Source: Escherichia coli (GTDB lineage: Bacteria > Pseudomonadota > Gammaproteobacteria > Enterobacterales > Enterobacteriaceae). From it: 64,000 nucleotides of DNA. This document shows, one piece after another, positions 57,501-60,500 of this stretch (positions within the stretch are counted from its first letter, which is position 1; each line of letters starts with the position of its first letter). The stretch lies in NCBI RefSeq assembly GCF_003018255.1, contig NZ_CP027440.1; one strand, written 5' to 3'. The position numbers are program-made.

Positions 57501-60500
57501 ATCACAAGATAATGGTATGTGCCCGGGAATGCACCTGCTTTATGTAGATGCGTTGATTTTTTGGATAAAAAAAAAGCAATTGTAAGTTTTTCATCACATT
57601 TAATAGATACTTTAAGTCTGATAACATACTGTTTTAACTAGCTATATGCCGGATTTGTCTGCCTGCTGAAAACTATGCCTTAGCCACCAGCACAATAATC
57701 TTACAAAAGGTCATATAAGAATAAATAGATGTTAATAATACAATGGGTTTGTAACGCGAGTATTTAAATATAATATTGCGAGCTAAGTGAAAACGTTAAG
57801 TAATTGAAATAATCTTTCATTAAAAGCGTTTCTTATTGATCGAGAATTAAGTTTTCTATTTAATGCAAATAAGTTAAGGATAAACTGGAATGAAATAAAG
57901 TGAGCGATATTGTTTACCTGAGAATAATCGGTGAGAAGCAGGGCTATATTTCTTCAGGCTGTGGGACGTATGCGTCGGTTGGTAATTGCTGGCAGGTTGG
58001 CCATGAAGATGAAATTTTTGCCTTTGCACTCACCAACGCCATTACCAGTACTGGTAAAGGCGTTAATCTACAGGGGCTACAATTTTGCAAACTCATTGAT
58101 AAAAGCTCACCGCTACTGTCTAATGCCATCAATCAGAATGAGCGGTTATTTATTGAAATCGATTTGTATCGTATAAATAAAAGCGGGCGCTGGGAACGGT
58201 ATTATTATATTCAGCTAAGAAATGCTTCATTAACTGCTATTCATGTAAACATTTCTGACAATAATCTTCCTACCGAATGTATAACTGTCGATTATGACTA
58301 CATATTATGTAAACATCTAATAGTCAATACGGAATTTGACTGGTTGGCCTTTCCTGCTGGCTATAATAGCTTATTTATTCCGCCTAAAAGCCCACCTGCC
58401 AGTAATCTTAAGCCTGAACCTCTACCAGTTGTTAACCTTCCACTCTCTTCACCAGCGGTTAACCCGGTCTATGCAAAATCCTGTCTGAAGGAGAAGGGAT
58501 GTACAGATGCTGGAACGGCAGAAGAACCCGCTGAAAACTTCGGTCAAGTAGCGATTTTTGCTCAGCCAGTGGTTGATGACTGCTGTGGATACCACCATCC
58601 CGAGGCTAACGATGTCGGGCAACCCGCAGAAGCTCAAACCATGCTACTGTTTCCGGGTAGTGTGTTGGCGGCTCAAATATGGGGAAAATGGTCGCTCAGT
58701 GGCATACTCAGTGCAACCCGCGGCTCTTACATCGGTGCGTTGGCATCTGCTTTGTATATTCCCTCTGCGGGCGAGGGCAGTGCTCGCGTGCCCGGACGTG
58801 ATGAGTTCTGGTATGAGGAAGAACTGCGGCAGAAAGCACTAGCAGGCAGTACCGCCACCACCCGGGTACGTTTTTTCTGGGGAACTGACATTCACGGCAA
58901 GCCTCAGGTGTATGGTGTTCATACGGGTGAAGGTACGCCGTATGAAAACGTCCGCGTGGCGAACATGCAGTGGAACGAGCAGACGCAGCGTTATGAATTT
59001 ACCCCCGCTCACGATGTCGATGGCCCCCTGATTACCTGGACGCCGGAAAATCCGGAACATGGGAATGTTCCGGGCCATACCGGTAACGACAGGCCGCCGC
59101 TGGATCAGCCCACCATTCTGGTGACGCCGATTCCGGACGGCACCGATACCTATACCACGCCGCCATTCCCGGTTCCTGATCCGAAAGAATTCAACGATTA
59201 TATTCTGGTTTTTCCGGCGGGATCCGGTATTAAGCCCATCTATGTTTACCTGAAGGAGGATCTGCGAAAGCTGCCTGGTGTTGTAACAGGGCGCGGCGTC
59301 CCGCTTTCACCAGGAACTCGCTGGCTGGATATGTCGGTATCCAATAACGGCAACGGCGCACCAATCCCGGCGCATATTGCTGATAAATTGCGCGGACGGG
59401 AGTTTAAAACCTTTGATGAGTTTCGCGAGGCGCTGTGGCTGGAGGTGAGTAAAGACTCAGTGTTATTGGCGCAGTTTATAAAAAGTAATCAGAATAACGT
59501 TAGTCAAGGATATTCCCCCTATGTCCCTGAGGAGGGGTATTATTACGGACCAAATGAGATAGTTAAGAAATTCCAGATACATCATGTAGTTGCTATAGAA
59601 CATGGTGGTGGAGTGTATGATATTGATAATTTTAGGATTGTTACGCCCCGACTACATGATGAAATTCACTACAGGAGATAATGTATATGCGTGATTTAAA
59701 AGATAAAATATATTTTTACACAGAAGGTGAATTTCTTGAAATGCTTGAGGAGATAGTAAATGCAACTAGCAAAGATAAATCCCTAAAAGGGAAAAAATTA
59801 GAAAAATATCTCGATACCTTAGTGGATCATTTCATTAAAATTACTGAACATCCTAAAAAGGGAGATCTCATTTTCTATCCTAATTCCCAAGAAGATGGTG
59901 AACCTGAAAACATCCTGAAAATCGTCAAAGAATGGCGGCGTTCACAGGGGCTACCCTTGTTTAAAGACTCTAAATAAAGTAGATAATAAAACTATATATG
60001 AAACATCATCGCGTCTGGCTAATGCGATGATGTTAATAACATAAAATAATAATATGGTTGCTCTTAAAAAACAGGTAAAAAATACTGAAATCATTTTATC
60101 AATTTCTCGCGTTCACCGATACCCTTTGGCTGGAGGTGAGTCAGTATCCGGAGTTGATAGCGCAGTTTTCAAGTGGTAACCAAACACGTATAAAACAAGG
60201 ATTAACCGCAAAAGCACCTCTTGAAGGTTGGCGTTATGGCCCTAAAGAAATCGTTAAAAAATTCCAGATACATCATCGTGTTGCAATTGAATATGGCGGC
60301 AGCGTATACGATATTGATAATTTACGAATTGTTACCCCCAGACTACACGATGAGATTCACTACAGGAGATAAATATGTTTAAAGAAAAGCTCGAAGATTA
60401 TACCGAGGAGGAATTTCTTAATTTTTTAGGCGGATTGAGATCAACTATGAAAGATGGAAAGCCCTTAAAAGGTAAGGAGCTAGAAATGTACTGGGATTCA

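What the first reader, a model, noticed from the sequence alone, without database searches (positions are those of the whole stretch)
60004..60032. Conserved hairpin in each inter-module spacer
The inverted repeat catcatcgc-gtctggctaat-gcgatgatg (9-bp stem) recurs at 60686-60714. A different but analogous hairpin with a T-tract follows the last immunity gene (61381-61415). The first two are not followed by a strong U-run. They could be partial terminators or RNA-processing or stability elements that uncouple expression of orphan modules from the main operon.
Basis: seen in the sequence. Interest (0 to 1): 0.35.

Follow-up and report, generated by a model that had tools for sequence, protein, structure and literature searches.

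The report
Stem-loop after each usp-island immunity gene
Each of the three immunity genes in the known E. coli usp toxin island (PAIusp) is followed, about 25 bases after its stop codon, by one conserved RNA-type hairpin that most likely acts as a weak terminator or mRNA stabiliser, an ordinary operon feature like the T1 stem-loop of colicin operons.

Summary
Perfect inverted repeats lie at 60002-60034 and 60684-60716 (identical, 11 bp, 13 bp as RNA) and at 61380-61414 (12 bp). The third is a homologue of the first two, not merely an analogue: it differs by two compensatory pair changes and has a similar loop.

The surrounding region (57545-61621) is the known island PAIusp between aroP and pdhR. 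It encodes the Hcp-pyocin-DNase toxin Usp, three immunity genes and two truncated toxin remnants.

The same hairpin, at the same distance after the stop codon, follows usp-type immunity genes in Salmonella and in Superficieibacter. Across 13 variants, 92% of positions pair and four pairs covary. Loop length ranges from 6 to 15 nt.

The two internal copies also sit inside a roughly 270-300 bp repeat, so their identity within this genome is not independent evidence. By a terminator-style score, the E. coli internal copies fail for lack of a U-tract, the terminal copy passes narrowly, and the Salmonella internal copies pass.

Best reading: a module-end mRNA stem-loop carried with each immunity gene, acting as a weak terminator at the array end and a read-through stabiliser inside. 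Function is inferred, not shown. This is an ordinary new member of a known kind.

The parts
60002..60034 (+). Internal hairpin copy 1, downstream of the first immunity gene (imu1): AACATCATCGC/GTCTGGCTAAT/GCGATGATGTT. It has no U-tract.
   Evidence: The covariance model R1 scores it 70.6 bits.
60684..60716 (+). Internal hairpin copy 2, downstream of the second immunity gene. It is identical to copy 1.
   Evidence: R1 scores it 72.4 bits.
61380..61414 (+). Terminal hairpin, downstream of the last immunity gene: GAAAATCATCAC/GTTCTGGTTAA/GTGATGATTTTC. The A-tract and U-tract form the base of the stem, and it scores as a borderline intrinsic terminator.
   Evidence: R1 scores it 71.2 bits. The identical sequence is the terminal copy in Salmonella.
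59781..60080 (+). First copy of the module-junction direct repeat: the 3' part of the immunity gene, the 3' UTR, the hairpin and the start of the spacer.
   Evidence: Repeat family D1, and alignments A1 and A4.
60463..60762 (+). Second copy of the module-junction direct repeat, 86% identical to the first over 300 nt.
57900..59681 (+). usp, also called hcp-ET: a fusion of an Hcp domain, an S-type pyocin domain and a colicin/pyocin DNase domain.
   Evidence: Pfam hits PF05638, PF06958 and PF21431. Identified with PAIusp in PMC7142922.
59681..59977 (+). First immunity gene, cognate to the encoded toxin.
   Evidence: PF01320 with E 2e-28.
60136..60372 (+). Orphan fragment of the DNase C-terminus, 78 aa with the HNH end intact.
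   Evidence: PF21431, profile positions 54-124.
60375..60668 (+). Second immunity gene.
   Evidence: PF01320 with E 4e-30.
60826..61065 (+). Second orphan DNase fragment, degraded: a frameshift removes the HNH end.
61066..61356 (+). Third and last immunity gene.
   Evidence: PF01320 with E 3e-27.
57545..61621 (.). The whole PAIusp island, inserted between aroP and pdhR.
   Evidence: Boundaries come from comparison with E. coli DH1. The right-hand end of the island (61340-61625) is found in 1058 of 5426 complete E. coli genomes.

Best explanation
The hairpin is the 3'-end stem-loop of the immunity-gene transcript. It is inherited as part of every toxin-C-terminus plus immunity module of the usp island (PAIusp).

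Shown:
- It forms a stable local stem-loop in the sense RNA, starting about 25 nt after each immunity stop codon. That is probably far enough downstream not to be covered by a terminating ribosome, which is my own estimate.
- The stem is kept by compensatory and wobble changes across Escherichia, Salmonella and Superficieibacter.
- The loop can be shortened or lengthened without loss of the stem.

Inferred:
- At the end of the array the version with GAAAA...UUUUC works as a weak intrinsic terminator and 3'-exonuclease barrier. It ends the transcript, which starts at the aroP P3 promoter according to PMC7142922, before the pdhR promoter region.
- Inside the E. coli and Superficieibacter arrays the U-tract has been lost (UUUU became UGUU or UAUU) with a matching change in the opposite arm.
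- RNA polymerase is therefore expected to read through into the downstream orphan immunity genes. The stem-loop would still protect the upstream usp-imu1 segment from 3'-5' decay, and possibly the downstream segment after endonucleolytic cleavage in the flanking A/U-rich sequence.
- The expected result is graded expression along the array.

The identity of copies 1 and 2 in this genome comes from duplication or gene conversion of the 270-300 bp module junction in which the hairpin lies.
For: - Stability and rarity: -17.6 and -15.8 kcal/mol, z -5.5 to -3.9. Three of the seven perfect inverted repeats of at least 10 bp in the 64-kb window are these hairpins.
- The hairpin persists in the minimum-energy and centroid folds of 146-nt contexts.
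- Conservation: in every usp-type array whose hairpin matched the pattern, the arm starts 28 nt from the first base of the stop codon, except where the stop itself is shifted. This holds for E. coli and Salmonella at aroP-pdhR and for Superficieibacter at another site.
- Between the E. coli internal and terminal types, the 28 nt before the hairpin are about 46% identical and the hairpin about 82% (my count from the sequences).
- Covariation on 13 distinct variants: 92.2% of cells paired against 20-60% for slid partners, four pairs changed on both sides, and 0 of 500 shuffles reach the covariation score.
- Wobble intermediates (G.U or U.G at four stem positions) are compatible with the sense strand, and 10 of 12 variants fold better as sense RNA.
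- Loop lengths of 6, 7-11 and 15 nt argue against a double-stranded protein-binding site.
- Terminator-style scoring: the E. coli terminal copy passes narrowly (hairpin -2.4, tail -2.58), Salmonella internal copies pass (-6.5, -3.2), and E. coli internal copies fail on the tail (-2.0).
- Terminal immunity genes at another insertion site (Superficieibacter-type arrays) carry an unrelated hairpin followed by a U-run.
- Colicin E2 and E7 and klebicin B immunity genes are followed by stem-loops. The ColE7 one, T1, has been shown to be a partial terminator and is reported to stabilise mRNA (PMC2896534).
Against: - No transcript 3' ends, half-lives or reporter data exist for this island in the papers I could read.
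- The stems are A/U-rich (3-5 G-C pairs), and the terminal loop of 11 nt is long for an intrinsic terminator. A canonical terminator in the same window scores -14/-5 against -2.4/-2.6 here.
- The commonest E. coli internal variant (EC958 type) has a C.A mismatch on the sense strand and folds better as antisense (-17.5 against -12.6 kcal/mol).
- The number of independent substitution events is small, perhaps five or six. Compensatory changes in quasi-palindromes can also arise by template-switch mutation without selection.
- The whole inter-module spacer, not only the hairpin, is about 80% conserved between E. coli and Superficieibacter, so part of the conservation may reflect recent horizontal transfer.
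Confidence: 0.55

Rival explanations
1. Passive relic. Each module was once the last in an array and carried its own terminator. Duplication, or insertion of new modules upstream, carried the hairpin inside the array. The internal copies are decaying fossils with no present function, repeated only because they lie in the 270-300 bp junction that is homogenised by recombination.
For: - The hairpins lie inside direct repeat D1, and the internal copies are identical within this genome.
- The internal copies have lost the U-tract.
- The EC958-type internal variant has lost three outer pairs on the sense strand.
- The type of hairpin follows position, not immunity type: the same immunity type carries the internal form at array position 2 and the terminal form at position 4 in EC958.
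Against: - The loss of the U-tract is accompanied by a matching change in the 5' arm (AAAA to AACA), which keeps the pair.
- Both differences between the Superficieibacter copy and the E. coli internal copy keep or improve pairing, and one Superficieibacter copy has an 18-bp stem.
- An array at a third chromosomal site (L040-L042) has a different hairpin without a U-run in the same internal position.
Confidence: 0.25
2. A DNA-level element. The palindrome extrudes as a hairpin or cruciform, or is bound by a protein, and promotes recombination, template switching or cassette exchange. That would expand, contract or reshuffle the immunity-gene array.
For: - The palindromes are perfect and sit in the middle of the recombining junction.
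- Array length (2-4 immunity genes) and module order differ between strains.
- In Salmonella the hairpin is fused directly to the last 15 nt of the toxin gene, as if a deletion had ended at the 3' arm.
- The 18-bp perfect stem in Superficieibacter looks like a template-switch product.
Against: - Ordinary homologous recombination between the 270-300 bp repeats is enough to explain changes in copy number.
- The island encodes no recombinase or integrase.
- Wobble-type changes mostly favour one strand as RNA.
- Loop length changes by 5-9 nt, which would disturb a double-stranded binding site.
- The motif occurs nowhere else in the window or in E. coli genomes.
- The similarity of the 3' arm to the toxin 3' end is not significant (P about 0.1).
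Confidence: 0.1
3. A protein-recognised regulatory RNA. An Imu immunity protein, CsrA or another RNA-binding protein recognises the stem-loop with its conserved loop motif UGG(C/U)UAA and feeds back on expression of the array.
For: - The loop motif UGG(C/U)UAA is invariant in all long-loop variants.
- Imu3 has been reported to bind RNA and DNA (PMC3917654).
- The colicin T1 loop is a CsrA site (PMC2896534).
Against: - The loop motif is deleted in all Salmonella internal copies, whose loops are GUUCUA or GUGUUA.
- There is no GGA in the loop.
- The authors of the Imu3 study inferred that its DNA binding is nonspecific.
Confidence: 0.07

Closest known systems
T1 stem-loop of the E-group colicin operons (cea-cei-T1-cel), for example ColE7
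   Same: - It is a stem-loop placed just after a colicin/pyocin-type DNase immunity gene (PF01320) and before the next gene of the operon.
- T1 lets only part of the transcripts read through, and it is also reported to stabilise mRNA (PMC2896534).
- I confirmed 16-bp hairpins after the immunity genes of ColE2 and ColE7 plasmids, and a hairpin followed by TTTTT after the klebicin B immunity gene.
   Different: - There is no detectable sequence homology. The covariance model built from the usp hairpins finds nothing in the ColE2, ColE7 or klebicin loci, and a BLAST search of plasmids finds only one large E. coli record (CP054241.1, 834 kb) that carries immunity-gene copies.
- T1 starts about 8 nt after the stop codon, not 25. 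It has a GGA (CsrA) motif in the loop, whereas this loop has UGG(C/U)UAA.
- T1 precedes a lysis gene, whereas here the next genes are orphan toxin remnants and further immunity genes.
- This element occurs several times per array.
Intrinsic (Rho-independent) terminators of E. coli
   Same: - The terminal copy has an A-tract, a stem-loop and a U-tract. In that layout it resembles the classical terminators in the same window at 19403-19432 and 46830-46855.
- It lies at the end of an operon, before the next promoter region.
   Different: - The stem is A/U-rich and the loop is 11 nt.
- There are only four U, all able to pair with the A-tract, and the score is borderline.
- The internal copies have no U-tract at all.
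Intercistronic stabiliser stem-loops in polycistronic mRNAs (REP elements in malE-malF, the puf operon hairpins of Rhodobacter); comparison from general knowledge
   Same: A stem-loop without a U-run sits between cistrons and is flanked by A/U-rich single-stranded sequence. The expected effect is differential stability of the upstream and downstream segments.
   Different: - It is not a REP element: it has no GCCGGATG consensus and is not dispersed in the genome.
- The stabilising function has not been demonstrated.
Orphan toxin/immunity arrays of Rhs and CDI loci; comparison from general knowledge
   Same: A full-length toxin gene is followed by truncated toxin C-terminal fragments, each with its own immunity gene. 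The modules are bounded by short conserved sequences, and module order differs between strains.
   Different: This is a DNase toxin fused to Hcp, with modules of only about 690 bp. As far as I know, a conserved hairpin at each module end is not a described feature of Rhs or CDI arrays.

Membership tests
PAIusp island (usp-imu1-3; Hcp-ET3-4 type) | Inserted in the aroP-pdhR intergenic region. | tested here: met
   aroP lies at 56001-57374 on the minus strand and pdhR at 61779-62576 on the plus strand. The boundaries against DH1 are 57545 and 61621. PMC7142922 describes the same site.
PAIusp island (usp-imu1-3; Hcp-ET3-4 type) | A toxin with Hcp, S-type pyocin and HNH DNase domains, followed by several colicin-type immunity genes. 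| tested here: met
   Pfam hits PF05638, PF06958 and PF21431, plus three PF01320 genes.
Intrinsic terminator | A stable stem-loop, usually G+C-rich, with a loop of 3-8 nt. | tested here: inconclusive
   The stems are 11-13 bp and stable (-16 to -18 kcal/mol) but hold only 3-5 G-C pairs. The loop is 7 nt in the internal copies (with a G.U closure) and 11 nt in the terminal copy.
Intrinsic terminator | A U-tract immediately 3' of the stem. | tested here: not met
   Refers to internal copies 1 and 2, the finding's own coordinates. Their 3' tail is UUAAUAAC. The best tail score is -2.0 against a threshold of -2.5 recalled from TransTermHP. The consensus scan does not list them. The terminal copy is borderline: UUUUC, tail -2.58, hairpin -2.4.
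Intrinsic terminator | Transcript 3' ends map to the U-tract. | not testable with these tools
   No transcript data were available, and the papers I read report none.
Colicin T1 stem-loop | Lies directly distal to a colicin-type immunity gene, within the operon. | tested here: met
   The arm starts 28 nt from the first base of each immunity stop codon. T1 was compared.
Colicin T1 stem-loop | Sequence or structure homology to T1. | tested here: not met
   Model R1 has no hit in the ColE2, ColE7 or klebicin loci L008-L010. BLAST of plasmids finds no colicin plasmid.
Colicin T1 stem-loop | A GGA (CsrA) motif in the loop. | tested here: not met
   The loops are GUCUGGCUAAU, GUUCUGGUUAA, GUUCUA and others, and none contains GGA.
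REP/BIME palindromic elements | A GCCGGATG-type consensus and many dispersed copies per genome. | tested here: not met
   The consensus is absent. There are only three copies in the window. In E. coli genomes the element is found only in genomes that carry the island, 1-4 places each.
Integron attC site | A neighbouring integron integrase; a 57-141 nt imperfect palindrome with a GTTRRRY core. | tested here: not met
   No integrase lies in or next to the island. The palindrome is 33-35 nt. GTTAATA and GTTAACA do not fit GTTRRRY (read from the sequence).
Any Rfam family | A match to a curated covariance model. | tested here: not met
   No hit overlaps the hairpins, even at E up to 10.

The most novel reading that the evidence does not exclude
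The stem-loop is a dedicated cis-regulatory RNA of the usp island, recognised by one of the Imu proteins; Imu3 has been reported to bind RNA. Binding at each module end would set the stoichiometry between the toxin and its several immunity proteins. This would be an autoregulatory circuit specific to polymorphic-toxin arrays, going beyond plain termination or stabilisation.
Probability: 0.06. Interest if true: 0.5.

Novelty: new member of a known kind. Interest (0 to 1): 0.25.

Why it matters
The usp island is carried by about a fifth of complete E. coli genomes, including ST131, UTI89 and Nissle 1917. It encodes a DNase toxin that is discussed both as an interbacterial weapon and as a genotoxin. 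How much of each immunity protein is made, and whether island transcription runs into the pdhR-aceEF promoter region, probably depends on these stem-loops.

They are not annotated in RefSeq, and the usp papers I could read do not mention them. They give simple, testable handles (stem mutations, U-tract restoration) for studying expression along a toxin/immunity array. Beyond that, the finding is an ordinary operon feature.

Tried and rejected
- **Rfam scan** of 57300-61900 at E up to 10: nothing on the hairpins.
- **Consensus terminator and promoter scan:** the hairpins are not called. A promoter-like site TTTAAA-16-GATAAT lies just upstream of each internal hairpin, but the counts are no higher than in shuffles.
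- **Homology to colicin T1 or klebicin terminators:** none by BLAST or by covariance model.
- **Scan of one genome per species** with the immunity-protein alignment gave 14 distant loci (Pseudomonas, Pectobacterium, Pseudocitrobacter and others). Most have some hairpin after the immunity gene, but none is homologous.
- **Decayed fourth module downstream of the terminal hairpin:** no significant DNA or protein similarity.
- **Origin of the arms:** I tested whether the 5' arm derives from the immunity coding sequence (CCTGAAAATCGTCA, 13 of 14 matches) and the 3' arm from the toxin 3' end (13 of 16). The P values are only 0.01-0.1, so I do not rely on this.
- **Minus-strand 47-aa ORFs that span the internal hairpins:** not conserved in Superficieibacter copy 2, in Salmonella or in the terminal copy, so rejected.
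- **Double-stranded operator:** rejected because the loop varies between 6 and 15 nt.
- **attC-like site:** rejected because there is no integrase and no core motif.
- **Conserved promoter in the spacer:** TTGCTC-17-AATACT is weak and is not conserved in Superficieibacter (my reading).
- **Ma et al. 2017 (Hcp-ET paper):** could not be retrieved.
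Full report
**1. The observation**

The inverted repeat is in the sequence as described. AACATCATCGC-GTCTGGCTAAT-GCGATGATGTT lies at 60002-60034 and again, identically, at 60684-60716. GAAAATCATCAC-GTTCTGGTTAA-GTGATGATTTTC lies at 61380-61414.

As RNA, the first two fold into a 13-bp stem with a 7-nt loop (-17.6 and -17.7 kcal/mol, z -5.5 and -5.1). The third folds into a 12-13-bp stem with an 11-nt loop (-15.8 kcal/mol, z -3.9). No shuffle folds as well as any of the three on the + strand. They remain the dominant local structures when 146-nt contexts are folded.

The degenerate pattern ATCATCRC-N11-GYGATGAT occurs three times in the window, against 0.08 expected. Only seven places in 64 kb hold a perfect inverted repeat of at least 10 bp with a short loop, and three of them are these hairpins. 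Two of the other four are GC-rich with flanking A/T tracts, like classical terminators.

**2. The context**

The hairpins lie in a 4.1-kb insertion (57545-61621) between aroP and pdhR that is absent from E. coli DH1. The insertion encodes:
- a 593-aa protein with Hcp, S-type pyocin and colicin/pyocin DNase domains;
- three colicin-type immunity proteins;
- between them, two truncated DNase C-terminal fragments, the second of which is frameshifted.

This is the known island PAIusp (usp with imu1-3). [quoted passage not shown] The same toxin appears as Hcp-ET3-4 (UTI89_C0121) in a review of type VI secretion (PMC6730261).

The right-hand end of the island is found in 1058 of 5426 complete E. coli genomes, once each. 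The internal-type hairpin occurs in 1050 genomes at 1-4 places, always chromosomal and unannotated. None of the usp papers I could read mentions a terminator, hairpin or inverted repeat.

**3. One element, not two**

The terminal hairpin is a homologue of the internal ones. Each arm matches at 9 of 11 positions. The two arm differences are compensatory (C-G to A-U and G-C to A-U), and the loops are alike.

By contrast, the 28 nt between the stop codon and the hairpin are only about 46% identical between the two types, and the sequences after the hairpin are unrelated. In every array the arm begins 28 nt from the first base of the stop codon, except where the stop itself has moved.

**4. Why copies 1 and 2 are identical**

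They lie inside a 300-nt direct repeat, 86% identical over its length. The repeat covers the 3' part of the immunity gene, the 3' UTR, the hairpin and the beginning of the spacer. A second repeat family continues into the orphan toxin fragments.

Strains differ in the number of modules (2 to 4 immunity genes) and in their order. The two Usp proteins compared are about 95% identical except in the last 80 or so residues.

The form of the hairpin follows position in the array, not the type of immunity gene. The recurrence within one genome is therefore a consequence of module duplication and homogenisation, and is not by itself evidence of function.

**5. Conservation elsewhere**

Relatives of the immunity protein led to usp-type arrays in three further settings:
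- Salmonella enterica, at the same aroP-pdhR site;
- Superficieibacter and related metagenomic contigs, at a different site;
- an unnamed enterobacterial lineage at a third site.

The same hairpin follows the immunity genes in the first two. Salmonella terminal copies are identical or nearly identical to the E. coli terminal copy. Salmonella internal copies keep the stem and the U-tract but have a 6-nt loop, and they are joined directly to the last 15 nt of the toxin gene, the Shine-Dalgarno sequence and the next immunity gene. Superficieibacter internal copies are of the E. coli internal type, and one has a 15-nt loop and an 18-bp stem.

On 13 distinct variants:
- 92.2% of cells form standard pairs, against 20-60% when the partners are slid;
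- four pairs show changes on both sides;
- none of 500 shuffles reaches the observed covariation score or the observed percentage paired.

A covariance model built from these variants finds the element only after usp-type immunity genes. It finds nothing in colicin E2 or E7, klebicin B, Vibrio, Pseudomonas or other loci.

**6. Strand and molecule**

Wobble pairs (G.U or U.G) at four stem positions are tolerated on the sense strand and would be A.C mismatches on the other strand. One common E. coli variant shows the opposite pattern. Ten of twelve variants fold better as sense RNA.

The loop varies between 6 and 15 nt while the stem is kept. That fits a hairpin in a single strand and not a double-stranded binding site. 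The evidence leans towards sense-strand RNA but rests on few independent events. Template-switch mutation in quasi-palindromes could also produce compensated stems without selection.

**7. Terminator or not**

The table gives a TransTermHP-like score. The parameters are recalled from memory and implemented, with pass thresholds of hairpin at or below -2 and tail at or below -2.5.

| Element | Hairpin score | Tail score | Result |
|---|---|---|---|
| E. coli internal copies | -9.7 (11-bp stem) | -2.0 (best) | fail on tail |
| E. coli terminal copy | -2.4 | -2.58 | narrow pass |
| Salmonella internal copies | -6.5 | -3.2 | pass |
| Canonical terminator at 19403 | -14 | -5 | strong pass |

The family is therefore at best a weak terminator.

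In E. coli and Superficieibacter the internal copies have lost the U-tract, with a matching change in the opposite arm. This is what would be expected if read-through into the downstream immunity genes is needed while the stem is still useful.

Terminal immunity genes at the Superficieibacter-type site carry an unrelated hairpin followed by a U-run. The internal position at the third site carries a different hairpin without a U-run. Both observations agree with the same division of labour.

**8. Comparison with what is known**

Immunity genes of colicins E2 and E7 and of klebicin B are followed by strong stem-loops. The ColE7 one, T1, is documented as a partial terminator that lets only part of the transcripts reach the lysis gene. 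It is also a CsrA-binding site, and it is reported to stabilise mRNA (PMC2896534).

The usp hairpin works like T1 in position and probable role. It fails the tests for membership: there is no sequence or model homology, no GGA in the loop, and the spacing differs. It is not a REP element, not an attC site and not an Rfam family.

**9. Verdict**

The most likely account (about 0.55) is a module-end mRNA stem-loop: a weak terminator and 3' barrier at the end of the array, and a read-through stabiliser inside it. It is carried along whenever modules are duplicated or exchanged.

The main rivals are a functionless relic of former terminal terminators (about 0.25), a DNA-level recombination element (about 0.1) and a protein-recognised regulatory RNA (about 0.07).

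It is a previously unremarked but ordinary feature of a well-known island: a new member of a known kind, of low to moderate interest.

Noticed in passing
window 57545-61621: The whole region is the known pathogenicity island PAIusp (usp plus imu1-3, also called Hcp-ET3-4), inserted between aroP and pdhR. About 1058 of 5426 complete E. coli genomes carry it, including EC958, UTI89 and Nissle 1917.
   Followed up: yes
window 59681-61356; L001 3785-6164: Module order differs between strains. Immunity types run A-B-C in the window and B-C-A-C in EC958. The two Usp proteins are about 95% identical except in the last 80 or so residues, so the toxin tip and its cognate immunity gene have been exchanged.
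   Followed up: partly
window 60106-60135 and 60796-60825; L029 2796-3179: All orphan DNase fragments begin at the same point of the toxin gene (CCCGCTTTCACC, encoding VPLSP). Compared with the 114-aa orphans of Superficieibacter, the E. coli orphans carry an internal deletion of about 110 nt down to the codons for LWLEVS.
   Followed up: partly
window 60035-60135 and 60717-60825; L029 2689-2795: The roughly 100-nt non-coding spacer between the hairpin and the orphan fragment is about 80% conserved between E. coli and Superficieibacter, with invariant blocks AAAAATACTGAA and ATTTT.TCA. Its origin and role are unknown; an internal promoter is one possibility.
   Followed up: partly
L031 4291-4361; L046 4291-4361: Salmonella arrays have no orphan toxin fragments. 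The hairpin, with a 6-nt loop and UUUU, is fused directly to ACTACAGGAGATAAC and the ATG of the next immunity gene. This looks like a deletion between the 3' arm and its flank (TGATGATTTTCGCTAC) and the toxin 3' end (TGATGAAATTCACTAC), which match at 13 of 16 positions (P about 0.1).
   Followed up: partly
window 61376-61389 against 59913-59926, 60604-60617 and 61292-61305: The 5' arm with its flank (CCTGAAAATCATCA) matches 13 of 14 bases of a segment inside every immunity gene (CCTGAAAATCGTCA, codons for LKIV). The 3' arm could pair with that segment instead. The match is marginal (P 0.01-0.06).
   Followed up: partly
window 59905-59945 and the equivalent positions in the other immunity genes: The segment CCTGAAAACATCCTGAAAATCGTCAAAGAATGGCGGCG, near the 3' end of the immunity genes, is almost invariant at the nucleotide level across genera. 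Third codon positions are conserved too (0.85 for codons -20 to -16). This suggests gene conversion or an overlapping constraint.
   Followed up: no
window 59951-60094 and 60633-60776, minus strand: Two 47-aa hydrophobic ORFs run across the internal hairpins on the opposite strand. They are not kept in Superficieibacter copy 2, in Salmonella or at the terminal copy, so they are probably spurious.
   Followed up: yes
window 60826-61065: The second orphan DNase fragment has lost the HNH end through a frameshift: ...LRRAHLICMMKFITGDS instead of ...LRIVTPRLHDEIHYRR.
   Followed up: yes
L040 4291-4360; L025 after 3252: Immunity genes at a third enterobacterial site and in Grimontia are followed by hairpins that share a CATCAC/GTGATG core with the usp hairpin, but the covariance model does not detect them. 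This could be deep homology or coincidence.
   Followed up: no
window 19403-19432, 46830-46855, 55967-55991, 2933-2959: These are the only other perfect inverted repeats of at least 10 bp in the window. The first two look like classical terminators, with GC-rich stems flanked by A-tracts and T-tracts. The one at 55967-55991 is GC-rich and lies between ampE and aroP.
   Followed up: no
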